A DNA stretch of 64,000 nt from a virus (taxonomy: Duplodnaviria; Caudoviricetes), in the IMG/VR virus record IMGVR_UViG_3300019124_000001, positions 99,788-163,787 of that record; one strand, written 5' to 3'. The position numbers and the translations under genes were made by a program. Under the pieces are notes generated by a model. The model had not been told where the DNA came from and made no database searches. It saw nothing but the letters and a program-made list of their open reading frames with translations. Of the stretch, positions 4,523 to 30,600 are shown in pieces. Numbering within the stretch: the first letter of the stretch is position 1; the number at the start of each line of letters is the position of its first letter.

Positions 4523-5584
4523 ATGTCAAATACCGCCAATTCCGTGCTGTTCGAAGATTATAATGCAAAACTCGAAAAGTTTGAAGTGTACAACTCGGAT
4601 GGAATCTCTGTACTTGGTTTCTATCCAATTAAAACGATTCTTGCAGAAGACCTTGGCAATGCGCTCCGCAAATACGTTATCGAGTCTGGTTTCAAGTATT
4701 GGAAATCGTATCGCAATGAGTTTGGGAAAAACATTCTCGTAGGGCTTCGAAAGGGCAATAGACGCCATCATAAGAACAATCAGGTGTTCGTTTACATATC
4801 GAAGGTAGACGATGCATTTGACTTTATTGTTGAAGACGCTCGTACACGTACACTGATGGCAGAAATTAGAGCAAGCAACATTCAAAGTGCGGCAATAGAA
4901 TTCGCAAAAATTGCCAAAAAGGATGTAGTAAAATTCCATTCCAAGAACACCTTGGCAACAATCTACGAGATTGGAGGAGAGCTTTACCTATTCCGCATTA
5001 AACCATTCATGAACGATGAAGGACAGAATAAACCGCAGAATCAAGCACCGATGGAGGAAATTTATTGGGGCGAAAGCCAAATTGATGGATCATGTTCAGA
5101 AATCATTGAAGGGATTATTGATGCGGCTGACAAGGCTGGTATTCTAGAAGACATTCCCGTTGAAGATGGAATGTTCAAACTTCATGCGACAGTAAATACC
5201 TCTATCTACCAAGAACTACAAGACGTTGTTCTTAAAGTTCAGTCAGGACAAAAGATTCGTTCTTCTCGAACCGAACGCGAACTTCTGCTTGGAGAAGATG
5301 GTGACTTCAGAGAGGTATTGCATTTCTCAAAATCGCAAATTCGACCGTACAATCTTTATACTAATCGAGTTAATTTCTCTGCATCGTTGTTTGAAGAAAA
5401 ATGGACAATCGTTTCTCAACCATGCAGTTTCGTAGATGCTATGCGTCATATGCAAGCTGGATGCACGATCTACTGTATCAATGATGGTTTGATGTATAAA
5501 GCCGAAACGTCAATCGGAATGTCTCTTAACGCATTTGCTTCCGCTAAGTGGTTCTATGAACCAGTAGAACTTCCGTTCGAATAA
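4523..5584 (+). CDS. Hypothetical multi-domain phage protein
   Basis: 353-aa ORF with AAGGAG RBS. Confidence 0.7.
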   Translation: MSNTANSVLFEDYNAKLEKFEVYNSDGISVLGFYPIKTILAEDLGNALRKYVIESGFKYWKSYRNEFGKNILVGLRKGNRRHHKNNQVFVYISKVDDAFDFIVEDARTRTLMAEIRASNIQSAAIEFAKIAKKDVVKFHSKNTLATIYEIGGELYLFRIKPFMNDEGQNKPQNQAPMEEIYWGESQIDGSCSEIIEGIIDAADKAGILEDIPVEDGMFKLHATVNTSIYQELQDVVLKVQSGQKIRSSRTERELLLGEDGDFREVLHFSKSQIRPYNLYTNRVNFSASLFEEKWTIVSQPCSFVDAMRHMQAGCTIYCINDGLMYKAETSIGMSLNAFASAKWFYEPVELPFE

Positions 5585-5608
5585 GATGGATCAAGAAAGG
5601 AAATTATC

Positions 5609-5794
5609 ATGAACAACCAAGATGATCCAATCTTTGACAAATTAAGTCGTATTCAGAAATATATTGTCGAGCGATTCAATGGTGTTCATGTAGACATATA
5701 TTATTCTGAAGGTCATCAAGGCGCATTGGTGGTTCAAGCAGGAAAGCCACTTATTTTGCAGAACGTAATTCATGTAGTCAAAGTGCGAATTTAG
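5609..5794 (+). CDS. Hypothetical protein
   Basis: 61-aa ORF, AAGGA RBS. Confidence 0.5.
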   Translation: MNNQDDPIFDKLSRIQKYIVERFNGVHVDIYYSEGHQGALVVQAGKPLILQNVIHVVKVRI

Positions 5795-5807
5795 GGAGGA
5801 TACCAAG

Positions 5808-5999
5808 ATGAAAATTCAAGTTGTTGGCTTGCGCTTTAATAGTGCTGATGAATGCGCTACTGCTCTTTTTGAGGCGCATTTGAAAATTGGATTTATTAAG
5901 GGCGAAATTGAACTGCCTTCCGAATTAAGGTATTGCGGAAATCAAACTGTGATATCCGAATATATTAAACGTGCCCTTAAATCAGAATTAATTTACTGA
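5808..5999 (+). CDS. Hypothetical protein
   Basis: 63-aa ORF, GGAGG RBS. Confidence 0.6.
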   Translation: MKIQVVGLRFNSADECATALFEAHLKIGFIKGEIELPSELRYCGNQTVISEYIKRALKSELIY

Positions 6000-6006
6000 A
6001 AGGTAG

Positions 6007-7704
6007 TTGAAAATTATGGCTTGGAAGAAACGTTCTCCGCAAATCGCATATTTAGAATCTGACCATGTTATCACAAAACTTGCCAAGATTAGAGGTATCA
6101 AGTCTACAGAGCTTGACAGATACATGAACCCAACATCGAAAGAACTTCATTCGCCATTCCTAATGAAGAATATTGAAATTGCTTCCGAAAGAATTGTAGA
6201 GGCTATTCGCAAAAATCAACGTATCGCAATCAGCAATGATTGTGATACGGATGGTGTTTGCGGAATGGCTCAGTTTGTCAGATACCTTCGTGATTGTGAA
6301 CATAAAAATTATTACGTAACACATAATGAACGTTCACGAGGTCACGGTGTGCATAATCAGCTTGACAAAATCGAAAATGGCACCGAACTTTTGGTCATTA
6401 TTGACTCATCATCGACAGAAGATTCTAAGGATGCTATTTTTTCGATAATTTCTCGTGGTATTGACGTAATCATTCTTGATCACCATGATGTTGAAGTAGA
6501 TTATCACGATTTGATTCCAAGAGTAATCATGGTTAACCCACAACAAATTGATTGCTTTTATCCAAACAAGCATATCTCCGGTTCTACCGTTGTCTACAAA
6601 ACATTACAAATGGTAGACGACATTATTGGTATGGGAACTGTTGACGATTACCTTGATCTTGTTGCGGTTGGCATGTATGCAGACGTTATGCGTGTAGATG
6701 TGCTTGAAAACCGATATTTGATCATGCAGGGAATGAAAAATATTCGAAATATTGGCTTAATGTCTATTCTGAAAGTGAATGACAAATTAAAGGAACCAGT
6801 CACGTCTCAAACCATTGGATTCACTTTGGCTCCTTCTATCAACGGAACCATGCGATTAGATAAGATCGAGTACGTAATAAAACTCCTCTTGGAAGATGAC
6901 GCATTAGTAGCGTACAATATTGCCAAAGACATTAAAAAATTCAACGATCAACGAAAGGCAGAGCAAAAGGAGATTGTCGAACGTTATCTGTCTCATTATG
7001 TTAACCCTGATAACAAGGTTGTCGTAGTCATTGACAAAGATGCTTCCAAAGGTTATAACGGCTTGGTGGCGACAACTTTGGCTGAAAAGTTTAAGCGTCC
7101 TGCTATCGTTATGCATGTCAATCAAGATGGCGAATGCGCTGGTTCTTTCCGTGCTTACGGAGACTTTAAAATGAAAAAGTTTCTCGTAAGTAATTTTAAA
7201 TTTGGGAAATATGCCAACACGATCAAATACGCTGTTGGTCACGAACAAGCTGGCGGTATTGGTGTACATGTATCCAATCTTAACGCACTCGTTAGTGGCA
7301 TGAATGCTGAACTTGCGAATGTTCATTTTGACACTGATTTAGAGTATGATCTTGAAATTGCGGCTGACGATCTTACTACGTCATTCATCCAACAAGTAGA
7401 AAAGTTTAACTTCTTGACAGGCAAGGGGTTTCCTACAGCCACATTCAAAGTGACAGGTTGTACCGTTTTGAAGCGTGACGTACTAGGCAAAGAACGGAAG
7501 GACACCGTAAAGATCACGTGCGATAACAATCTTGCTTTAATGAAGTTTCGAACTGACTCAGATTGGGGATTAGACATCATTGATGAAGATGCTTGGGTTA
7601 ATACTGTAGATGTAATCGGGCAGTTAAATGTTAATGTTTTTGTAACCCGATCTGGTCGGCGTGTAACCAATCAGGTTTTTGTTGAGGACTACAAAAAAGT
7701 TTGA
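6007..7704 (+). CDS. recJ: RecJ-like ssDNA exonuclease (DHH/DHHA1)
   Basis: DCDTDG, ILDHH, YADV, GSFR, GHEQAGG motifs. Confidence 0.9.
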   Translation: MKIMAWKKRSPQIAYLESDHVITKLAKIRGIKSTELDRYMNPTSKELHSPFLMKNIEIASERIVEAIRKNQRIAISNDCDTDGVCGMAQFVRYLRDCEHKNYYVTHNERSRGHGVHNQLDKIENGTELLVIIDSSSTEDSKDAIFSIISRGIDVIILDHHDVEVDYHDLIPRVIMVNPQQIDCFYPNKHISGSTVVYKTLQMVDDIIGMGTVDDYLDLVAVGMYADVMRVDVLENRYLIMQGMKNIRNIGLMSILKVNDKLKEPVTSQTIGFTLAPSINGTMRLDKIEYVIKLLLEDDALVAYNIAKDIKKFNDQRKAEQKEIVERYLSHYVNPDNKVVVVIDKDASKGYNGLVATTLAEKFKRPAIVMHVNQDGECAGSFRAYGDFKMKKFLVSNFKFGKYANTIKYAVGHEQAGGIGVHVSNLNALVSGMNAELANVHFDTDLEYDLEIAADDLTTSFIQQVEKFNFLTGKGFPTATFKVTGCTVLKRDVLGKERKDTVKITCDNNLALMKFRTDSDWGLDIIDEDAWVNTVDVIGQLNVNVFVTRSGRRVTNQVFVEDYKKV

Positions 7705-7712
7705 TAGAGTAG

Positions 7713-7742
7713 TTGACAAACAACAACTATGTATGGTACTAT
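7713..7742 (+). promoter_or_regulatory. SigA-type promoter whose spacer is the repeat box
   Basis: TTGACA-AACAACAACTATGTATGG(18)-TACTAT, extended -10. Confidence 0.8.
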
Positions 7743-7788
7743 AAAAATGTGAGTTACGACAAATACGAACGAGAGGGGAACATTTAAG

Positions 7789-8064
7789 ATGGACTCGAAA
7801 TTTTTGTTAAAAGGCGAAGAAACAACCATCACCCTGCAAGACGAAGATGGCAAAGATTTGGTATGTACGATGATTTGCACCTTTGAAAATGAAGGCAATA
7901 TCTATGCTGTTCTAGTTGTTAACGATGACAACTCTGACGATGGATATATGTTGCGTATTGACAATGACGGAGAACACGATTACCTTGTTGAAATTGAAGA
8001 CGAAGAAGAGTGGCAACGTGCGGTGGACGCATACAGCGTCATTGCAACGCTCGACGAAGCATAA
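7789..8064 (+). CDS. DUF1292-like acidic protein
   Basis: ITLQDEDG...YAVL...LVEIEDEEEW pattern. Confidence 0.7.
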   Translation: MDSKFLLKGEETTITLQDEDGKDLVCTMICTFENEGNIYAVLVVNDDNSDDGYMLRIDNDGEHDYLVEIEDEEEWQRAVDAYSVIATLDEA

Positions 8065-8078
8065 AGGAGGAAACAAAA

Positions 8079-8522
8079 ATGTATTTTGCAAAAATCGCAA
8101 TCCTTTCCCTATTCTGCGGAGGAGTTGCTTGGTACATGATTGCACGTTGGTTTAAACTGAAGCACAAGAAGAAAGTATCCGAAATTCATGCGAACCAATT
8201 AAAAGAACTTGACGAAGAAGTTCGGGACACGGTGCCTCAATGGGATGTTTCAACCAAGAAACAAGATCAGCCGAAGTCCACAGAAGTCTCTATTGTAGCT
8301 CTAAACACGAACATTCAACCAGTCCAACAATATGCTCGAAAACAAGCAAATCCCAAGGTAAAAACTTCTGTGTCGATTAACGACAACACATACTATGGCG
8401 AATCGCCATCGAAGCCTTCAAGTTACCGCAGTGGTTCGTCGTCGTGGTCTTCTGATTCTTCATCGTCTTCCGATTCGTGGTCTTCGTCTTCTGATTCTTC
8501 ATCGTCGAGTTCGTGCGACTAA
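8079..8522 (+). CDS. Membrane-anchored protein with Ser-rich C-terminal tail
   Basis: AAGGAGG RBS, N-terminal TM, SSSWSSDSSSSS repeats. Confidence 0.7.
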   Translation: MYFAKIAILSLFCGGVAWYMIARWFKLKHKKKVSEIHANQLKELDEEVRDTVPQWDVSTKKQDQPKSTEVSIVALNTNIQPVQQYARKQANPKVKTSVSINDNTYYGESPSKPSSYRSGSSSWSSDSSSSSDSWSSSSDSSSSSSCD

Positions 8523-8535
8523 CAACAACTATGCT

Positions 8536-8563
8536 AGAAGAGGGCTTTTGCCCTCTTCTTTCT
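8536..8563 (+). terminator. Intrinsic terminator
   Basis: AGAAGAGGGC-TTTT-GCCCTCTTCT followed by a short T run. Confidence 0.65.
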
Positions 8564-8580
8564 ATTGAGGAGGAAACATT

Positions 8581-9240
8581 TTGAACGAAATTACCGAACT
8601 TCAAGAGCTTGATCTTCCTGCTGAAATCTATTTCATGCGTGGCTTTGCTTTGGGCAGTGGGTACAATGAACTTTATAGGTCTATTAGTTGTGCGCTCATC
8701 GAACACCGCAAACAAGCTCGTAATGGTGGTCAACCGTATGCAACACACCCGATTCGATGTGCCCACATGTTGGTAACTCACGGTGTTCGCGATGAGCGTA
8801 TCCTGTCTACAGTTGTTCTGCATGATGTACCTGAAGATTGTGGCGCAAGCAAAGAAGACCTGATTCATATGTATGGAATCAGTGAAGATGTTGCTTACTT
8901 AGCAACAGTGCTCGACAAAAGACGGTACAAATCCACTGAGGATTACTACTTGTCTCTTCGACAGTACATTGAAACTATTCTTACAAAAATTGTAGACCGT
9001 TGTCATAATCTTGCTACAATGGTTAACGTTTTCTCTGAAAAAAGGATGAAGAAATATATCGAGGAGACAGAAGAGTATGTGATTCCCCTCTGTCAATATG
9101 CAGTTCTCCATCATCCCGAATATTCGAACGTAGTATTTGCATTAAAGCGTCATATCGTTGATATGCTCACCATTCTAAAAGCCCTTCTTCCAAAGGATCA
9201 TTTGGACGAAGAAATGATAGGAGCGACATGTTCATTATGA
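8581..9240 (+). CDS. HD-domain (p)ppGpp hydrolase-like protein (small alarmone hydrolase/Mesh1 type)
   Basis: HRKQAR..G.PYATHP, LHDVPED, KIVDRCHN motifs of the RelA/SpoT hydrolase domain; no synthetase domain. Confidence 0.85.
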   Translation: MNEITELQELDLPAEIYFMRGFALGSGYNELYRSISCALIEHRKQARNGGQPYATHPIRCAHMLVTHGVRDERILSTVVLHDVPEDCGASKEDLIHMYGISEDVAYLATVLDKRRYKSTEDYYLSLRQYIETILTKIVDRCHNLATMVNVFSEKRMKKYIEETEEYVIPLCQYAVLHHPEYSNVVFALKRHIVDMLTILKALLPKDHLDEEMIGATCSL

Positions 9241-9413
9241 TTTGGGTTTTATATCGAAACGGCGAACTGTTCGGAAATGGCTCAAACATTCGTGCCTATG
9301 CTTCCGAAAAGAGGGCAATGGCAAACGCATTGGCTATTGTTCGTAATGGAATTGGGACATATAAGATTGAAGAATTTAAGGCTGTACCCTATATGCCTAA
9401 AGAGGTGAAATAG
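9228..9413 (+). CDS. Hypothetical protein
   Basis: Short ORF with AGGAG RBS. Confidence 0.5.
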   Translation: MFIMIWVLYRNGELFGNGSNIRAYASEKRAMANALAIVRNGIGTYKIEEFKAVPYMPKEVK

Positions 9414-9416
9414 CAT

Positions 9417-9626
9417 ATGCCGCTAATCCTGCTGATTGTTTCAATTGGTTTGGCATTTGTGCCAATGTGGTTCTTTATTTTGGTTGCGTGTATAGCAACA
9501 GTCTACGTTGTTATTATTGCATCTCAACTGAACTGCATATTGGAAGCATTCATTGCAATGGTGTTCGTATGGATTATCCTTTATGGATTAAGATACCTAA
9601 TTCATCACTTGCAATGGGTGAACTAG
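9417..9626 (+). CDS. Small membrane protein
   Basis: Very hydrophobic 69 aa, GAGGTG RBS. Confidence 0.6.
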   Translation: MPLILLIVSIGLAFVPMWFFILVACIATVYVVIIASQLNCILEAFIAMVFVWIILYGLRYLIHHLQWVN

Positions 9627-9644
9627 AAGGAGCGAAAAACAAAC

Positions 9645-10388
9645 ATGGAACGAAAACCTGTAGCAAAAATGCTTGTTGGTTCACACAACTACAACTTGCA
9701 TAATGAGAATTCTGACCGTGATTATAAGCTATTCGTCCTACCAACGTATGACGACTTATATCATGGAACTACCGATCACTTTAAAACCAAGTCTTCGATT
9801 ACGAATACAGAGGATGTAGAAGTCCACGATGTTCGCAGATTGCCGCATTTGCTGGACAAGGCAAATGTGAACTTCATCGAAACTCTTTTCTCTGTATCTC
9901 GTACAACGTGGGACGAAACCACCTACTACACCGATCAATTGTTCGCAATGCGCGAAGAACTTGCGCGTATGAATCTGCCGTATTTGTACAATGCTTCTTT
10001 CGGCATGTTTATCGAACAGAAGAAAAAGTGGGAGAAAGGCGACTACACCGACCATAAGAAAGCGTATCAAGCCCTTCGAATTCTTGATTTTCTTGTTCGA
10101 TACGAGCGCAACAAGTTTGAATCTTTTGGTCAGGCCATCTATTACGAAGCAAGCGACCCAATGCGTAGCTATCTCTTGAAAGCAAAAGCAGGGGAAGTTT
10201 CAATGGGCGATATGAACGTATCTTTGGCTAATTACGAGAACCACGTCAAACTAATTCGTACATCCTACATGTCTCACGAGCGGAATGAAGAAACAAAAAA
10301 GCGTCTTGATAAACTTGTCTACGAAATGGTTGCAATCGAGATCGAGAACGAGTTTATGCGAAAAAAAGACGAAAGCATTTTGTTCTAA
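9645..10388 (+). CDS. Pol-beta superfamily nucleotidyltransferase (RlaP/PF10127-like)
   Basis: VGSHNYNL...SDRD (GS...DxD) motif, KAN.NF.E.L, KK.Y.ALR. Confidence 0.75.
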   Translation: MERKPVAKMLVGSHNYNLHNENSDRDYKLFVLPTYDDLYHGTTDHFKTKSSITNTEDVEVHDVRRLPHLLDKANVNFIETLFSVSRTTWDETTYYTDQLFAMREELARMNLPYLYNASFGMFIEQKKKWEKGDYTDHKKAYQALRILDFLVRYERNKFESFGQAIYYEASDPMRSYLLKAKAGEVSMGDMNVSLANYENHVKLIRTSYMSHERNEETKKRLDKLVYEMVAIEIENEFMRKKDESILF

Positions 10389-10471
10389 TACCACGCGTAA
10401 GACCTCTGTTTGGATGACATACATTTTGAAATAACTCTGTAAATTGTTGTAGCTCTCGTCAAAGATCGTTG

Positions 10472-10501
10472 TTGCGCAAGGTTGCCGCCAGATGGTATCA
10501 T
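10472..10501 (+). promoter_or_regulatory. Candidate SigA promoter of nrd operon
   Basis: TTGCGC-18-TATCAT with extended -10 TG. Confidence 0.5.
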
Positions 10502-10573
10502 AGTAGAGTATCAATTGTACAGAAGGTCTTCGTGTCTCTTTACAAACAACAACTATGTATGGTGGTGGACATC

Positions 10574-10948
10574 TTGATAGTGGCATATGATTCGAGGACG
10601 GGCAACGTAAAGAGGTTCGTTTCTAAGCTCGATATGGATTCTATTCAAATAACAGAAGATTCTGTCATTAATGAGCCGTTTGTGTTGATCACGTTTACAA
10701 CAGGCTTCGGTCAAGTCCCACCTAAAACTGCCAAGTTTTTAGAAAGAAACCATCGTAACCTTATTGCTGTTTCTGCGAGTGGGAACAAAAACTGGGGAGA
10801 CTCTTTCGCAAAGAGTGCAGATATTATTTCAGAATCGTTTGGCGTTCCAGTTATCCTGAAGTTTGAATTGTCTGGAACGCCAAACGATGTAGTTTTCTTC
10901 AAAGAGAGGGTGCAAGAAATTGGCAAGCAGACACATCGAACTAAATAA
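10574..10948 (+). CDS. nrdI: Class Ib RNR flavodoxin NrdI
   Basis: YDSRTGNVKRF, TTGFGQVP, SGNKNWG; TTG start after GGTGG RBS. Confidence 0.95.
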   Translation: MIVAYDSRTGNVKRFVSKLDMDSIQITEDSVINEPFVLITFTTGFGQVPPKTAKFLERNHRNLIAVSASGNKNWGDSFAKSADIISESFGVPVILKFELSGTPNDVVFFKERVQEIGKQTHRTK

Positions 10949-15883: not shown

Positions 15884-16897
15884 ATGCAAGTAAAAATGAT
15901 CTATCATACACCTAACTACCACAAGCTCGTAGAGGCTCTTGCAAGAAACTGCTACCAATCTTACGAACGTTGCACTGAAACATCTCATAATATGCTTAAA
16001 GGAATTATGGCGAAAGGACATTTGAGTGTTGCTAGCGTAGGGAATATTGTTTTTAAGTTGCAAGCTGACAACTATGCTGAACTTGTAAGTTTGTATGGCG
16101 ACCTTATTGCATTTAAAGAGATTACACCTTTTATTCGTTGGACATTTCCAAACAAACAGAACCAAGTAGATCGCATTGTGGTATCTATGAACGTATTGAC
16201 GTTAATGGACATAAATAACAATTATGTTTCGTTTCATGACGACAACGATCATCCATCTGCCTTGTTGCCACAAATAATCGAACAGATTAAGGCTGTCCCG
16301 TATCTCCATTGGTTCCTAGATCATACAGTTGATGTGCCGTCAGCGCCAAATGAGTATCTTGTCACACCTGATTGGTCGAATCCAATCGTTTTGACTCAGG
16401 ATTATACGGCACTTAAAGAGCTTGGATTTACGGACTATGAACTTGACACACATGCTACTGTTACCGTAGACCTTGTTACAGATCGTGCGACAGGCTTACA
16501 AATGTGGAGACATGTAGCGTATCAAGGTGGAACGGAGCTATCGCAAAGATATGTTGACCGTTCAAATGCATCTTTCCGTGTACCTGTGGGTTTGGAACAA
16601 TTGAATACGGAAACCGAAGATTGGGTAGAATGGTTTAAAGACCTTATGAATTCACATTTGTCTAATTATAATATAGTCAAAGAGGAATTGGAAAATGCTG
16701 GAATTGGCAAAATGAGAGCTAAAGAAATGGCTCGAAACCTGCTCCCGAATATCCAGACCCGAATCATTCAATGTCGCCCATTAAAATATTGGAAACATTA
16801 TATCAATCTGCGGAATACTCCACACGCACAAGCAGAGATTCGGGAGGATACAAAAGCTCTTATCTCATCTTTCCAAAATGCAGGTATTGAAATTTAA
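15884..16897 (+). CDS. thyX: FAD-dependent thymidylate synthase
   Basis: RH...SQRY motif, EMAR.LLP, LR...HAQAEIR. Confidence 0.85.
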   Translation: MQVKMIYHTPNYHKLVEALARNCYQSYERCTETSHNMLKGIMAKGHLSVASVGNIVFKLQADNYAELVSLYGDLIAFKEITPFIRWTFPNKQNQVDRIVVSMNVLTLMDINNNYVSFHDDNDHPSALLPQIIEQIKAVPYLHWFLDHTVDVPSAPNEYLVTPDWSNPIVLTQDYTALKELGFTDYELDTHATVTVDLVTDRATGLQMWRHVAYQGGTELSQRYVDRSNASFRVPVGLEQLNTETEDWVEWFKDLMNSHLSNYNIVKEELENAGIGKMRAKEMARNLLPNIQTRIIQCRPLKYWKHYINLRNTPHAQAEIREDTKALISSFQNAGIEI

Positions 16898-16898
16898 A

Positions 16899-16940
16899 AT
16901 ACAAAAAGCGGCTATCAAAAATGATAGCCGCTTTTTGTAT
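16899..16940. terminator. Bidirectional intrinsic terminator between thyX and the tRNA-like RNA
   Basis: ATACAAAAAGCGGCTATCA-AAAA-TGATAGCCGCTTTTTGTAT perfect inverted repeat. Confidence 0.9.
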
Positions 16941-16943
16941 AAT

Positions 16944-17216
16944 TGGTGTGGGTGAGGGGATTCGAACCCCCAAGGATGTTTTTGCTGATCCGCAAATAGG
17001 GGCATAACCTCTTCGAAGCAACGAAACCTGATAATTCTCTGCATGGAGAGCGTATCGTGCACTCAATAGCATCGTGCCCGTTGGTACGATGCTTACCATC
17101 GGAGAATAAAAATCAAAGAAGTTATGTACTTTTACCGCAATTGCAGAATCGCTAGTCACAGAGCCTACGAATCGCACCCCTGCGTTTCGCCGTATGCCGT
17201 TTTCTGGTACACCCAC
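16944..17216 (-). ncRNA. 273-nt tRNA-like/tmRNA-like RNA with tRNA-Leu-type shell
   Basis: Acceptor stem GUGGGUG/CACCCAC, A73, encoded CCA, T-arm GGGG-UUCGAAU-CCCC, GG-containing D-loop, variable-arm hairpin GGAU/AUCC, about 190 extra nt where the anticodon arm should be; own promoter and terminator. Confidence 0.8.
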
Positions 17217-17228
17217 ATTGTCTTGTAT

Positions 17229-17278
17229 ATTATAGCTTATTCGATTATGATACTAATATTCTTAATATTATTCGACAA
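17229..17278 (-). promoter_or_regulatory. Promoter(s) for the tRNA-like RNA
   Basis: TTGTCG(17278-17273)-17-TAGTAT(17255-17250); also TATAAT at 17234-17229. Confidence 0.6.
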
Positions 17279-17320
17279 TAAACGACAATCATAATTCCTC
17301 GGTCATAATCTAGGAACTTG

Positions 17321-17350
17321 TTGACAAACAACAACTATGTATGATAGACT
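17321..17350 (+). promoter_or_regulatory. SigA-type promoter containing the repeat box
   Basis: TTGACA-AACAACAACTATGTATGA-TAGACT. Confidence 0.75.
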
Positions 17351-17407: not shown

Positions 17408-18145
17408 ATGAAACTCGGCTTGGGGCTGGCAAGACTTCTAAAACCTAATCCGATTGAAGAATTGATCAAAAAGGTCAATCGGGGAGATGTGGTCGTAGAC
17501 GTTAATACTGGAAACCTAGTGGAAACGAAGCATCTAGAGAGCAAAGAGGATGTGGTTGATCCTGTTATTGACAATGAGCTTTCACAATCCACCGAACCTA
17601 ATGAACCCACTGAAATAGAACAAAATCACGAAACCCTTGGCATTGTTTTGTCGCAAGACGTAGCAATGATGGCTGAAGAATTGAATGCGGACGATGGTGC
17701 TAATCCTTACTCAACCGCACAAATGGATATGTCTGCGTATCGTCCCAATCGTGTTGCAGAACTTGTGCAATCCATCTGCGATACCATGAATGAACTATCT
17801 GTTGTTAAAACCCAAATTAACAAAAAAATGAGCAATGTCGATAAAGAACTGAGTAACATTTATCATAATGCAGAAGTGCATCTTATGACCGATGAACAAG
17901 CTATTTCTGCATGGAGATATTTGCAGGATGTAGTTCGTACTCGCCGCCAAGTGAAGCACGAAAATGAGCTAATTAGTCATCTAGAAAGCAAATTTAAGTT
18001 CGAAACGTTTCTTCCACAACTTACTAATGCTAATAGCGGCGTTCAGAAGCGATACCGAGATCAGCAGAATTTTTGGGATAAAATAGAAGATGAAACTCCT
18101 ACTATCAATGGTACCAAAAAATCGTGGAAGAAGATGTACAAATAG
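17408..18145 (+). CDS. Hypothetical coiled-coil phage protein
   Basis: 245 aa; VDKELSNIYH...RR.VK.E helical motif. Confidence 0.75.
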   Translation: MKLGLGLARLLKPNPIEELIKKVNRGDVVVDVNTGNLVETKHLESKEDVVDPVIDNELSQSTEPNEPTEIEQNHETLGIVLSQDVAMMAEELNADDGANPYSTAQMDMSAYRPNRVAELVQSICDTMNELSVVKTQINKKMSNVDKELSNIYHNAEVHLMTDEQAISAWRYLQDVVRTRRQVKHENELISHLESKFKFETFLPQLTNANSGVQKRYRDQQNFWDKIEDETPTINGTKKSWKKMYK

Positions 18146-27689: not shown

Positions 27690-30600
27690 ATGTGTCAAAA
27701 TCATTCCCCTTTTGTAAACCTTCATGTCCACACAGCGTACTCCCTCTTGGATTCCATTTCCAAACCGCAAGATATTATGAACAAGGTTAAAGCTATGGGA
27801 CAGCCAGCAGTCGCAATTACGGAGCATGGGAACGTGTTTTCGGCTGTTAAAGCGACGAAATTGGCAAAAGCACTAGGAGTTAAGCACATCTACGGTTGTG
27901 AATTCTACACATGCGACAATCGTTTCGAGAAGAATAAAGATCGTGCATATTACCACATGACTATTCTTGCTAAGAACGAATCTGGTCGTATCAACATCAA
28001 CAAACTGGTATCCATTGCAAATATCGAAGGATTTTACCGCAAGCCCCGTATTGACTTCGAACTGCTTCAGCAGTACGGAGAAGGCTTGATCATCTTGTCA
28101 GGGTGTATGGCTTCCGAGCTTCAGCAAACGCTTGCAGGGGGCAAGATTGGAGATAGGGATGTAGTCGTAACACCAGAAAACTACAGACGAGCAAAGCAAG
28201 TTGCCGCTCGTTACAAGAAGCTCTTTGGCGACGATTACTATATCGAAGTTCAGTCTCACCGTGATCATCGTCAACAAACCCTTAACCGCTATCTCGTAAA
28301 CATTGCGAAAGAGCTTGGTATTAAATGGGTTGCTACTGCTGACTCGCACTTCGTAGAAGAGAGCGACATGGAGCTTCATGGTATCTTCGTGCAAATCGGT
28401 CAGTCTCGCGAAGTAGGGGAGACGTATCACGACACACAATTGCAATCCGAAGAAGAAGCTCGTGTTCGTCTGAAACCAGCATTGACGGACGAAGAGATCG
28501 ACGTGGCAATTTCAACTACGATGGAAATTATGGAAAAATGTAACGCTAAAATTCCATTGTCTGCACCGCTGATCCCGCACGTAGAGGTTCCCGAATACTA
28601 CAACGGTATAAAAATCGAAGACGAAGATGATTTTCTTCAAAAGCTGTGCAATGAGGGTTGGAAAAAACGTGGTATCCACTTGAAGCGCAATCAGAAAGTT
28701 TTGCGATACAAAGACGGTTCTTGGATTCATATTCAAGGTGCTAACGAATCTGGAAGAATTCTATTGGCAAAATATGAAATCGAACAAGGAAACGCCGAGC
28801 TAGTCCCATTGACAGACATCTATAAGGAACGTCTGCTTTACGAATATAATGCCGTATCTAAAATGGGCTTCACTGGCTACTACCTCATGGTTCGCTCCTA
28901 CGCCAACTCAGTGCGTAGACGTGGTATTGCGCGTGGCTCTGGTGGGGGTTCCCTTATTGCGTACCTCTTGAACATCGTCAACATCGACCCTGTGCGGTTC
29001 AACTTGAAATTTGAACGCTTTATTGATGTGGCGCAACTTGAACTTCTTCAGAATGGACAAATTACGCCAGAAGAATTGAAAATTCCAGACTTCGATCTCG
29101 ACTTTGGAACAGAGGAACGAGAGAAGGTTATCCAATATATTGTTGAAACCTACGGCAAGGATCGAGTGGCTTCCATCGGTACGTTTATGAACATGAAAGA
29201 CAAGTCTGCCGTCAAAGACGTTGGTCGCGTTCTAAATATTCCTTTTAACGTAACTAATGAAATTACCAAGATAATGGACGAAGATTCAATCGAAGAGTGC
29301 ATTAAGGATGGACGTTTAGCTGTCTTTGCTCAAAAATATCCTAAATTATTTGAGTATGCCCAAAAGCTCTCTGGTTTGCCGCGTTCATTCTCCATGCATC
29401 CATGCGGCAAGGTAATCACCATTGATGAACTGAATCACTATACTGGTCTTTCGGTCAACGAAGGTGAATTAGTGTTCCACTTGGACATGAAGGACTGCGA
29501 AGCATTGGGGCTTGTTAAGATCGACACCCTTGGTCTTCGAACAGTAGACGTGGAGTACGATACTATCGACATGATTTTGGATGATCAAAATCTTTTGCCC
29601 ATTCTTTTAGAATGGGGCGATGCGAAGGGCATCAACTATAATGTTAATGACCGTCAATCACTGGAACAGCTTGCAGAGAAATTACTTGATCCTGATTACA
29701 TGGATTTCGAAGACCCAAAAGTTCTCGAAGTATTCCAGAATGGTTTTACTGATGGCGTATTTCAATTCGAATCCGAAGGCATGAAGAAGACGCTGAAAGA
29801 AATGAAGCCAACAGGCATTGACGATCTTGCAGTTGCGAATGCTTTGTACAGACCCGGAAGTTTGAAGTATATTCCGAACTACATTGCTCGTAAGCATGGC
29901 TTAGAGAAATATAGTTATCTTCATCCAACTCTGAAACCGATCTTGGAGAAATCGTTCGGGATCATTGTTTTCCAAGAACAGTTGATTGACATTGGTCGAA
30001 TGGCTGGACTTCGGAATCCTGACAAACTTCGTATCGCAACAGGCAAAAAGATTCAGTCTGTCATGGACGAAGTTCGCCCTGAATTGCTAGAGGGTTTGTT
30101 AAAAATGGGATGGACTAAAGAGCAATTCGAGCAACTTTGGGCAGATATGTTGGAGTTTGCAAAATACTCCTTCAATGCTTCCCACAGTTACGCATACGCA
30201 ATCATTGCCTTTGCATGTGCATATCTGAAAACGTACTTCCCTGTGCAATTCATGACTGCCCTCTTTAACTCCTACGAGGGCAAGCACGACCGTATGGATG
30301 TGTGTTATCGTGAAGCTCGTCGTCTTGGCGTTGAAATCAAACCGTTGTCGATTGTGCATCCTTCTGCCACCTGTGAAGTAGTTAACGGTAAAATTAACTA
30401 CGGTTTGACGCTAATCAAACACTGTAACCGCCAGATTGCTAGAGAACTTAAAGAGATCGGTTGGGGCTACAAGGACTTCACAGAAATGCTTGTAGCAATC
30501 AAAGAGAAAACCTCTGTTAATGCAAGGCAATTGCAAATCTTAATCAAACTCGGTTTCTTCGACTTGTTCGGGAAGCGCGAACGTTTGATTAAGGTGTGGC

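What the first reader, a model, noticed from the sequence alone, without database searches (positions are those of the whole stretch)
16944..17216. Non-alanyl tmRNA-like RNA: tRNA-Leu-type shell around a tag-reading-frame interior
Seen: a 273-nt minus-strand RNA with its own promoter and terminator, inserted against the direction of the operon. It has a 7-bp acceptor stem GUGGGUG/CACCCAC-A-CCA, a normal T-arm, a D-arm (CCAGAAAACGGCAUACGG) and a class-II-like variable hairpin (GGAU...AUCC). The anticodon arm is replaced by about 190 nt closed by a long irregular helix (CGCA/UGCG, GGGGUG/UGCCCC, UUCG/CGAA), like tmRNA P2. Inside, AUAACU (17125-17120) is followed by UCU UUG AUU UUU AUU CUC CGA UGG UAA = SLIFILRW* (17119-17093), then a strong hairpin (AGCAUCGU/ACGAUGCU). 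Known: tmRNAs carry G3.U70 for AlaRS and lack a D-stem and long variable arm; AUAACU precedes the resume codon in B. subtilis tmRNA (recalled); bacterial LeuRS reads A73 and tertiary shape more than the anticodon, and the shell resembles Bacillus tRNA-Leu (GCGGGUG...CACCCGCACCA, recalled). Here position 3:70 is G-C. Inference: a phage trans-translation RNA charged with Leu that adds a hydrophobic tag not ending in Ala-Ala, or a tRNA decoy. An alternative short frame (GKST*) and an alternative pairing (CGAAAC/GUUUCG) also exist.
Basis: partly seen in the sequence, partly recalled or inferred. Interest (0 to 1): 0.92.

Follow-up and report, generated by a model that had tools for sequence, protein, structure and literature searches.

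The report
Orphan tRNA-like phage RNA, not tmRNA
A large soil phage carries what looks like a gene for a 273-base RNA built from the outer shell of a leucine-type transfer RNA, with a long folded insert where the anticodon arm should be; it does not pass the tests for a tmRNA, and no relative was found anywhere.

Summary
The sequence features are at the stated coordinates. They include a perfect 7-bp acceptor stem, a canonical T-arm, A73-CCA, a class-II D-arm, a -10 box and a strong terminator, all on the minus strand between plus-strand genes.

The shell is tRNA-derived. Its D-loop nearly matches the phage's own tRNA-Leu D-loops, and it carries every E. coli LeuRS identity element listed in a review.

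The tmRNA reading fails.
- Position 3:70 is G-C.
- Rfam matches only the T-arm (12 bits against a 47-bit cut-off).
- ARAGORN finds no tmRNA even at 80% thresholds.
- The proposed AUAACU and the start of the tag lie in the most probable helix, 14 bp with P 0.78-1.0.
- The phage has no SmpB.

No single excision gives a consistent spliced tRNA, and there is no group I intron match.

No homologue turned up in GenBank phages, IMG/VR, genome or metagenome scans, or 17 kin records, so covariation cannot be tested.

Best reading: a non-decoding, possibly leucylatable tRNA mimic that acts as a scaffold or decoy. Its function is inferred, not shown.

The parts
16944..17216 (-). Whole candidate RNA, 273 nt, from G1 of the acceptor stem to the encoded CCA
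   Evidence: Single copy in the genome.
17229..17256 (-). Promoter-like site: TTAGTA, 16-nt spacer, TATAAT; the -10 box ends 12 nt before G1
   Evidence: One search gives the coordinates. One search did not flag it because the -35 matches only 3 of 6. Function is inferred.
17210..17216 (-). Acceptor stem, 5' strand GUGGGUG
   Evidence: Pairing probability 0.96-1.0.
17190..17207 (-). D-arm-like element CCA-GAAAACGGCAUA-CGG, preceded by U8 A9, with A14, A15, G18G19, A20a and A21
   Evidence: The loop is close to that of the phage's tRNA-Leu(UAA/UAG), and the arm is also like that of tRNA-Ser(UGA). The stem has 2 Watson-Crick pairs plus A.C.
16991..17184 (-). Insert of about 190 nt that takes the place of the anticodon arm; predicted as a branched rod
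   Evidence: No Rfam family matches it at E<=10.
17113..17126 (-).
   Evidence: P 0.78-1.0. 5 of 300 shuffles have a helix this long.
17003..17016 (-). 3' strand of the 14-bp helix, UCGAAGAGGUUAUG; 12 Watson-Crick and 2 G.U pairs
17068..17093 (-). Hairpin AGCAUCGU...ACGAUGCU at the tip of the rod
   Evidence: P 0.80-0.89.
17048..17064 (-). Hairpin GAGUG-CACGAUA-CGCUC: a 5-bp stem with a 7-nt loop
   Evidence: P 0.77-0.78.
17093..17125 (-).
   Evidence: Largely base-paired in the predicted structure.
16974..16991 (-). GGAU...AUCC, the proposed variable-arm hairpin; it competes with UUGC/GCAA
   Evidence: P 0.02 against 0.51-0.55 for the competing pairing.
16955..16971 (-). T-arm GGGGG-UUCGAAU-CCCCU
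   Evidence: It is the only part that Rfam models match.
16944..16954 (-). Acceptor 3' strand CACCCAC, discriminator A73, encoded CCA
   Evidence: The 3' 28-32 nt are 87-89% identical to annotated tRNA-Leu genes of phages, at E 0.3-3.
16899..16940 (.). Terminator with a 19-pair stem and A/T runs on both sides. It serves the RNA on the minus strand and probably thyX on the plus strand.

Best explanation
This is a stand-alone gene for a non-decoding RNA derived from a tRNA.

The outer shell of a class-II, leucine-type tRNA is kept: the acceptor stem, the D-arm with its tertiary-contact bases, the T-arm, A73 and an encoded CCA. The anticodon arm is replaced by a branched, rod-like insert of about 190 nt.

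Shown:
- the anatomy;
- the kinship of the shell to the phage's own tRNAs;
- the absence of tmRNA, group I intron or protein signatures.

Inferred:
- It is transcribed from its own -10 promoter and ended by the hairpin terminator.
- The shell makes it a substrate of the tRNA maturation machinery: RNase P at the 5' end, and CCA upkeep, for which the phage has its own CCA-adding enzyme.
- It may also be a substrate of LeuRS.
- Having no anticodon loop, it cannot read codons. It would therefore work as a stable tRNA mimic. Either it is a decoy or sponge for a factor that recognises the acceptor/elbow part of tRNA (LeuRS, or a tRNA-directed host defence), or the shell is a natural 'tRNA scaffold' that stabilises the insert as the working part.
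For: Shell:
- 7 Watson-Crick acceptor pairs, then U8 A9, a canonical T-loop, A73 and CCA.
- It is one of 2 long tRNA-like candidates outside the tRNA array in 163,787 bp; the other is non-canonical.
- The D-loop is close to those of the phage's tRNA-Leu(UAA/UAG), and the D-arm and T-arm are close to those of tRNA-Ser(UGA).
- All E. coli LeuRS elements named in the review are present, and the anticodon and variable arms are dispensable for charging.

Gene-like setting:
- It sits in a 510-nt gap between plus-strand genes in a tightly packed genome.
- The TATAAT ends 12 nt upstream of G1, and the terminator stem starts 3 nt after the CCA.
- On the plus strand the stretch lies between the thyX terminator and the next promoter-like element.

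Structure:
- z = -2.8 for the whole RNA and -3.7 for the 124-nt core of the insert.

Not a protein:
- The 118-codon ORF has no Pfam or PHROG family.
- It has no relative in the protein search: 5 candidates, none scored.
- It runs through the terminator.

Context:
- The phage invests in tRNA biology, with 29 tRNA genes and a CCA-adding enzyme (113 bits).
- Phage tRNAs are reported to counter tRNA-cleaving defences (abstract starts in the listing: PMC11555353, PMC13096335, PMC10802454).
Against: - There is one sequence only. No homologue was found, so there is no covariation and no evidence of selection.
- There are no expression data.
- The promoter has a poor -35 and was not flagged by the scan.
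- The D-stem has an A.C mismatch, and 5 extra nucleotides lie between the D-arm and the first helix of the insert, so the core may fold imperfectly.
- The base of the insert is uncertain (P 0.06-0.51).
- The plus strand folds about as well: -84.5 against -89.2 kcal/mol for the whole RNA, and z = -5.0 against -3.7 for the 124-nt core. Predicted structure therefore does not fix the strand; only the tRNA shell does.
- A decaying tRNA pseudogene would look similar.
- The LeuRS rules come from E. coli, and the host is unknown, though probably a Bacillota species.
Confidence: 0.5

Rival explanations
1. A decaying tRNA pseudogene. A class-II tRNA gene copy was disrupted by an inserted or expanded palindromic segment, and the product, if any is made, has no function.
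For: - It is an orphan: no relative in any collection searched.
- The D-stem has a mismatch and there are extra linker bases.
- No anticodon arm can be rebuilt.
- The insert folds equally well on both strands, as a DNA palindrome would.
Against: - All 7 acceptor pairs, the T-arm, the tertiary-contact bases, A73 and CCA are intact.
- There is a perfect -10 box and a terminator at the right distances.
- Both mismatches of the 14-bp helix are G.U on the minus strand.
- A packed phage genome rarely keeps 270 nt of junk.
- There is no second copy of the insert in the genome.
Confidence: 0.2
2. An intron-bearing tRNA of the kind reported as 'enigmatic introns' in large phages. The insert would be removed by an unknown route to give a working decoder.
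For: - The Lak megaphage preprint reports phage tRNAs with introns of unknown type (10.1101/356790, passages).
- At thresholds lowered to 80%, ARAGORN calls the exact 273-nt span a tRNA-Ile(UAU) with a 181-nt intron at position 29.
Against: - ARAGORN at default thresholds with introns allowed finds nothing here.
- Of 1,551 single-deletion constructs, 119 gave a call, scattered over 11 anticodon labels (75 His-AUG, 12 Ile-UAU, 9 Asn-AUU and others). The excision points were mostly inside the D-arm, and none gave a canonical anticodon loop.
- There is no group I intron match at E<=10.
- The phage has no RtcB and no RNA ligase.
- The 2014 review states that all phage group I introns seen by then were in protein genes.
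Confidence: 0.12
3. One reading: a leucine-charged, tmRNA-like RNA that enters stalled ribosomes and adds (L)SLIFILRW.
For: - It has a tRNA-like domain without an anticodon, with A73 and the Leu elements.
- A short frame followed by a hairpin exists at the stated place.
Against: - Position 3:70 is G3-C70.
- The Rfam tmRNA families reach 12.0 and 12.4 bits against a 47-bit cut-off, over the T-arm and 3' part only.
- ARAGORN finds no tmRNA at 100, 95 or 80% thresholds. The only call, at 60%, is on the other strand.
- AUAACU and the first 7 nt of the frame lie in a 14-bp helix with P 0.78-1.0, and the helix the model needs has P 0.00-0.51.
- The frame is a 12-codon stop-to-stop window, which is unremarkable.
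- There is no SmpB in the phage.
- There is no homologue with which to test the tag.
Confidence: 0.04
4. Mainly a DNA-level element, such as a palindromic protein-binding site or a replication-related site in the replication and nucleotide-metabolism module, that happens to adjoin a tRNA fragment.
For: - The interior folds as well or better on the plus strand (z = -5.0).
- It lies among replication and nucleotide-metabolism genes.
Against: - The 5' acceptor strand, U8 A9 and the D-arm lie about 220 nt away from the T-arm and match it perfectly, which a stray 3' fragment would not explain.
- The G.U pairs are strand-specific.
Confidence: 0.07
5. A protein-coding gene: the 118-codon ORF at 16860-17216 on the minus strand.
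For: Frame 1 has no stop over the whole RNA.
Against: - It has a GTG start with no ribosome-binding site.
- It reads through the 19-pair terminator and overlaps thyX.
- It has no Pfam or PHROG family.
- It has no relative in the protein search: 5 candidates, none scored.
Confidence: 0.02

Closest known systems
tmRNA (SsrA)
   Same: A tRNA-like domain formed by the two ends, with acceptor stem, T-arm and CCA. There is no anticodon, and a large structured interior takes the place of the anticodon arm.
   Different: - G3-C70 replaces the alanine signal G3.U70.
- It keeps a class-II D-arm.
- There is no match to the tmRNA models beyond the T-arm and no ARAGORN tmRNA call.
- The proposed resume region is paired.
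- No pseudoknot series is evident.
tRNA genes with 'enigmatic introns' in Lak megaphages and other huge phages (10.1101/356790, passages seen)
   Same: A phage-encoded tRNA-like gene, much longer than a tRNA, with an insert of no known intron class.
   Different: - Those genes give a normal tRNA once the insert is removed at or near the anticodon loop. Here no excision restores an anticodon arm.
- Their sequences are in a supplementary table that I could not open, so no direct comparison was made.
Minimal tRNA-Leu substrates of E. coli LeuRS (Larkin et al. 2002, as summarised in PMC9976931)
   Same: Acceptor, D and T core with A73 and intact D/T-loop contacts, but without a working anticodon arm. 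Such RNAs are still leucylated in vitro.
   Different: Those are engineered deletions. Here the arm is replaced by about 190 nt in a natural phage gene, and charging is untested.
Engineered tRNA scaffolds and tRNA-aptamer fusions (PMC5397188, start of the abstract seen in the listing; the tRNA-scaffold method itself is recalled)
   Same: A foreign RNA is carried inside a tRNA shell, which gives tRNA-like processing and stability.
   Different: Those are laboratory constructs. A natural phage counterpart has not, to my knowledge, been described; searches found none.
T4 RNA C and RNA D (PMC3014915, passage seen)
   Same: Small stable phage RNAs of unknown role that are linked to tRNA genes.
   Different: [quoted passage not shown] This gene lies about 106 kb from the phage's tRNA array. 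That they have tRNA-like ends is only recalled.
Bacterial Y RNA (YrlA) (PMC4201824, start of the abstract seen)
   Same: A modular non-coding RNA with a tRNA-mimicking domain joined to a long helix; some are encoded by phages.
   Different: - In YrlA the RNA ends are in the long stem, not in the acceptor stem (recalled).
- There is no Ro/TROVE gene in this phage.
- There is no Rfam match.

Membership tests
tmRNA | tRNA-like domain: acceptor stem, T-arm, 3' CCA | tested here: met
   The T-arm is matched by RF00023.
tmRNA | G3.U70 alanine identity pair | tested here: not met
   G3 pairs with C70.
tmRNA | Score at or above the cut-off of the Rfam tmRNA models | tested here: not met
   RF00023 reaches 12.0 bits and RF04321 12.4 bits against 47, over the T-arm and 3' part only. 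There is nothing at gathering level.
tmRNA | Detected by ARAGORN's tmRNA search | tested here: not met
   None at default, 95% or 80% thresholds. At 60% the only call is on the opposite strand.
tmRNA | Accessible resume codon and a conserved tag frame | tested here: not met
   The proposed upstream box and first codons lie in a helix with P 0.78-1.0. Conservation cannot be tested, because there is no homologue.
tmRNA | Works with SmpB | tested here: inconclusive
   There is no SmpB in the phage. The host is unknown and would normally supply it.
Canonical tRNA | Cloverleaf with anticodon arm, found by ARAGORN or the Rfam tRNA model | tested here: not met
   tRNAscan-SE was not on hand.
tRNA with an intron in the anticodon loop (group I or other) | Removal of one segment restores a canonical tRNA | tested here: not met
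   1,551 deletions gave 119 scattered, inconsistent calls. There is only one call at the 80% threshold, with the intron in the D/anticodon-stem region.
tRNA with an intron in the anticodon loop (group I or other) | Group I intron core | tested here: not met
   No RF00028 match at E<=10 in 601 nt or 283 nt. The model can miss atypical introns.
Leucine-type (class II) tRNA shell | A73, A15-U48, G18G19, A20a, and the T-loop contacts U54:A58, G18:U55 and G19:C56 | tested here: met
   All are present in the sequence. The element list comes from PMC9976931. The D-loop is like that of the phage's tRNA-Leu.
Leucine-type (class II) tRNA shell | Charged by LeuRS | not testable with these tools
   Needs an aminoacylation assay.
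Y RNA / YrlA | Ro (TROVE) partner gene and an Rfam match | tested here: not met

The most novel reading that the evidence does not exclude
The phage makes a leucine-chargeable tRNA mimic that has no anticodon. It would be a natural 'tRNA scaffold' whose shell feeds it into RNase P, CCA-adding and LeuRS pathways. Its 190-nt rod would either give it a new job on the ribosome or make it a decoy that soaks up LeuRS or a host defence enzyme aimed at the acceptor/elbow part of tRNAs. This would be a class of phage RNA not described so far.
Probability: 0.15. Interest if true: 0.85.

Novelty: new variant of a known kind. Interest (0 to 1): 0.45.

Why it matters
Phage tRNAs are now known to counter tRNA-cleaving host defences. 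A tRNA shell with no decoding part would extend that theme from spare parts to mimics, and it would be a natural counterpart of the engineered tRNA scaffold. If it is charged with leucine, it would be the second kind of aminoacylated non-decoding RNA in bacteria after tmRNA. As it stands it is a single orphan sequence with no expression data, so its value is as a well-defined candidate for a simple bench test.

Tried and rejected
Homologue hunt, all negative:
- blastn against 50,697 phage records gave no match at 1e-5. At E<=10, 58 records matched, 0 of them covering 80% or more; the top-ranked rows were mostly 3'-end matches to tRNA genes, with some short interior matches.
- Exact or IUPAC patterns in IMG/VR gave 0 hits four times. 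A 16-mer gave 8 hits with no tRNA context and no extended likeness.
- Patterns in genome contigs gave 0 hits and 7 hits, none in a tRNA context.
- Single-protein locus searches with ThyX and RNR found no relative.
- Synteny. Jenst and SecTim467 have only 81 nt after thyX. 8 of 8 metagenome ThyX loci have no tRNA-like neighbour, though some loci end close to thyX.
- Kin. In 3 GenBank phages only chance 12-17-nt matches were found. In 17 DnaE-kin IMG/VR records, 6 had short matches at E<=1, half of them to T-loops.
- A scan for long tRNA-like genes gave no credible candidate in 37 loci covering 6 kin genomes, and 0 candidates in 99 loci totalling 1.30 Mb. One kin genome was fetched only to 115 kb of its 134 kb.
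- nhmmer against the same 99 loci gave a best E of 0.27.
- The ORF translation, used as a probe, found no relative.

Sequencing runs: 4 DNA runs of one study hold the stretch, with no variant at the locus, and no RNA holder is listed.

Other negatives:
- Antisense targets in the phage genome: only chance matches of 13 nt or less outside the T-loop.
- An ARAGORN 'tRNA-Lys with a 752-nt intron' in a kin phage has no Rfam match and is probably a false call.
- Absent from the phage: SmpB, RtcB, RNA ligase, TROVE, reverse transcriptase and class Ia synthetase.
- Forcing CGAAAC/GUUUCG costs about 4 kcal/mol and gives an odd fold. It could only coexist with the 14-bp helix as a pseudoknot. By my own rough estimate, about 0.4 such 6-mers would pair between unpaired stretches by chance.

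Full report
**Setting**

The window is bases 99,788-163,787 of a 163,787-bp IMG/VR virus record with direct terminal repeats, and the RNA stretch occurs once in it. Near-identical DNA is held by four DNA runs of one biocrust-metagenome study.

The phage is only distantly related to described phages.
- Its DnaE-type polymerase is 51% identical to that of Brevibacillus phage Sundance.
- Its ThyX is 42-45% identical to those of Bacillus phage EZ-2018a and the Brevibacillus Jenst-type phages.
- A tail protein has the YomG N-terminal domain.

A host in the Bacillota is therefore likely, but it is not shown.

The finding lies in a 510-nt gap between thyX (15884-16897, +) and an unknown 245-codon gene (17408-18145, +). 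This gap is inside a plus-strand block of nucleotide-metabolism and replication genes: RecJ-like, RNR large and small subunits, thioredoxin, MazG-like, Gp157, ThyX, C5-methylase, PcfJ-like, DNA ligase and DnaE.

**The observation**

Read on the minus strand, the 273 nt from 17216 to 16944 contain the following.
- A 7-bp, all Watson-Crick acceptor stem, GUGGGUG/CACCCAC.
- U8 A9.
- A D-arm-like CCA-GAAAACGGCAUA-CGG.
- A canonical T-arm, GGGGG-UUCGAAU-CCCCU.
- Discriminator A and an encoded CCA.

A 19-pair terminator hairpin starts 3 nt after the CCA. A perfect TATAAT ends 12 nt before G1. Its -35 (TTAGTA, 16-nt spacer) is poor, and the consensus scan did not list the site.

A scan of the whole genome looked for a canonical T-arm plus NCCA with a paired 5' strand up to 700 nt upstream. 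Outside the tRNA array it found this locus and one non-canonical 719-nt chance hit.

The RNA folds better than shuffles. For the whole RNA z = -2.8, with 2 of 200 shuffles as good. For the 124-nt core of the insert z = -3.7, with 0 of 200.

So the object is real and is more than chance would give.

**What the shell is**

The phage has 29 tRNA genes at genome positions 5,072-10,648, all with encoded CCA except the UCA-anticodon gene.
- The D-loop of the candidate (GAAAACGGCAUA) is close to that of the phage's tRNA-Leu(UAA) and tRNA-Leu(UAG) (GAAUUGGCAUA).
- The D-arm as a whole and the T-arm are also close to the phage's tRNA-Ser(UGA).
- The 3' 28-32 nt give weak matches (87-89% identity, E 0.3-3) to annotated tRNA-Leu genes of unrelated phages.

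The identity review PMC9976931 (passages read) says several things about E. coli tRNA-Leu.
- Identity rests on A73, the A15-U48 pair, G18G19 and A20a, and the D/T-loop contacts.
- Neither the anticodon nor the long variable arm is needed.
- Variants lacking both arms are still charged.
- G73 of tRNA-Ser blocks LeuRS and TyrRS.

All the positive elements are present here, with A73. 'Class-II, Leu-type shell' is therefore supported at the level of sequence. Actual charging is untested, and the rules come from E. coli.

No bacterial genome among 185,579 species carries the 22-mer of the 3' end. None carries the D-arm 20-mer in a tRNA context either; there were 7 hits, all without tRNA context. 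The shell is thus not a copy of a known host tRNA.

**What the inside is**

Position 26 is followed by 5 unpaired bases and then by an insert of about 190 nt.

The thermodynamic ensemble is dominated by a 14-bp helix, raw 91-104 with 201-214. It has 12 Watson-Crick and 2 G.U pairs and P 0.78-1.0. A helix that long occurs in 5 of 300 dinucleotide shuffles.

The helix continues outward into GGGG/CCCC (P 0.51). It continues inward into AUUCUC/GAGAAU and a junction with two hairpins (P 0.77-0.89).

The result is a branched rod with a side hairpin at raw 42-82.

- CGCA/UGCG has P 0.06-0.11.
- The last two pairs of GGGGUG/UGCCCC, and UUCG/CGAA, compete with the 14-bp helix.
- The 'variable hairpin' GGAU/AUCC has P 0.02 and loses to UUGC/GCAA.
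- CGAAAC/GUUUCG has P 0.00 and could only form as a pseudoknot.

There are caveats. This is single-sequence prediction. The plus strand folds about as well. The strand is therefore fixed by the tRNA shell, by the two G.U pairs and by the transcription signals, not by folding energy.

**Tests of the tmRNA-like reading**

1. Position 3:70 is G-C.
2. Rfam 15 gives nothing at gathering level in the whole window. At E<=10 the tmRNA and permuted-tmRNA models reach 12.0 and 12.4 bits against a 47-bit cut-off, covering only the T-arm and 3' part.
3. ARAGORN finds no tmRNA at default, 95% or 80% thresholds. The single call at 60% is on the other strand.
4. AUAACU and the first 7 nt of the 'tag' lie in the most probable helix. 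The frame itself is a 12-codon stop-to-stop window in one of three frames.
5. The phage has no SmpB, though a host would supply one.

I put this model at about 4%.

**Tests of the intron reading**

- ARAGORN with introns allowed finds nothing here at default thresholds.
- I made all 1,551 single deletions that leave 68-100 nt and gave them to ARAGORN. It made 119 calls spread over 11 anticodon labels (75 His-AUG, 12 Ile-UAU, 9 Asn-AUU, 7 Gly-GCC and others). Most excision points fell inside the D-arm, and none gave a canonical anticodon loop.
- At 80% thresholds ARAGORN does call the exact 273-nt span, as a tRNA-Ile(UAU) with a 181-nt intron at position 29. That is a weak solution of the same kind.
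- No group I intron model matches at E<=10.
- The phage has no RtcB or RNA ligase.

The 2014 review states that all phage group I introns known then were in protein genes. The Lak-megaphage preprint does report phage tRNAs with introns of unknown type. Its sequences are in a supplementary table that I could not open. I put splicing to a decoder at about 12%.

**Protein reading**

Frame 1 is open for 118 codons. However:
- it starts at GTG with no ribosome-binding site;
- it runs through the terminator and overlaps thyX;
- it has no Pfam or PHROG family;
- it has no relative in the protein search, where 5 candidates shared words and none scored.

**Search for relatives**

Nothing was found.
- GenBank phages by blastn.
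- Six pattern scans of IMG/VR (with 81 and 82 as follow-up on the 16-mer). Four patterns gave 0 hits, and the 16-mer gave 8 chance hits.
- Two scans of genome contigs.
- Next to ThyX in Jenst and SecTim467, which have only an 81-nt gap, and in 8 of 8 metagenome loci.
- 3 GenBank and 17 IMG/VR kin records by BLAST.
- 99 fetched loci (1.30 Mb) by nhmmer, best E 0.27, and by a dedicated scan for long tRNA-like genes, 0 candidates.

The contigs of the four runs show no variant at the locus. The RNA is therefore an orphan at the sensitivity available. Neither covariation nor conservation can be assessed.

**Most likely mechanism**

Shown: a tRNA-derived shell with intact maturation and identity features, a structured insert in place of the anticodon arm, and tidy transcription signals.

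Inferred: the transcript is cut by RNase P at G1. It keeps its CCA end, for which the phage carries its own CCA-adding enzyme (113 bits). It may be leucylated. It cannot decode.

I therefore read it as a non-decoding tRNA mimic. One option is a decoy for a factor that reads the acceptor/elbow part of tRNAs. Phage tRNAs are reported to counter tRNA-cleaving defences such as retron effectors, PARIS and Septu (starts of the abstracts in the listing). The other option is a natural tRNA scaffold that stabilises the insert.

Confidence that it is a real non-decoding tRNA-derived RNA is about 0.5. Which of the two roles holds is open. The main rival is a decaying tRNA pseudogene, at about 0.2.

**Novelty**

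Searches of the paper library turned up no phage RNA with a Leu-type shell and a replaced anticodon arm.

The nearest things are tmRNA, the Lak-phage intron-bearing tRNAs, minimal tRNA-Leu substrates, engineered tRNA scaffolds, T4 RNA C and D (role unknown) and YrlA.

I rate it a new variant of a known kind, the tRNA-derived non-coding RNA. It is interesting but rests on one sequence.

Noticed in passing
window 17320-17350 (+); also 76, 499, 7712, 10538, 18145 and 26776; 17 copies in the genome: A 16-base core, ACAAACAACAACTATG, usually preceded by TTG and followed by TATGGTAAGAT-like bases, occurs 17 times in the phage. Sixteen copies are on the plus strand between genome positions 68 and 127 kb, and one is on the minus strand at 16.4 kb. 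Of the 7 copies in the window, 4 lie in gaps before plus-strand genes. It looks like a phage-specific promoter with a conserved spacer, perhaps an operator. In the window there are 7 matches against 0.05 expected.
   Followed up: partly
genome 5,072-10,648 (outside the window): There is an array of 29 tRNA genes on the minus strand covering every amino acid except Phe. It includes one gene with anticodon CUA and one with UCA, which would read the amber and opal stops (ARAGORN labels them Pyl and SeC). The long ORFs listed under table 11 run up to 1,936 codons, so no recoding is evident.
   Followed up: partly
genome 80,651-82,153 (+), outside the window: A 500-codon ORF matches the CCA-adding enzyme / poly(A) polymerase head domain (113 bits), so the phage encodes its own CCA-adding enzyme.
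   Followed up: no
window 29566-29646 (-): ARAGORN's only call in the window, a tRNA-Phe with anticodon AAA, lies inside the 1,142-codon DnaE-type polymerase gene and is probably a false positive.
   Followed up: partly
window 15884-16897 (+): The ThyX-like protein has the Thy1 domain only in residues 190-330. It also has a conserved N-terminal part of about 190 residues shared with the Jenst-type phages and with 8 metagenome contigs (43-51% identity). That part has no Pfam family.
   Followed up: partly
L096 (IMG/VR contig), 1756-1777: There is a 22-nt exact match to the loop and inner stem of the hairpin at raw 127-148. There is no tRNA-like signal nearby and no extended likeness, so I judge it chance.
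   Followed up: partly
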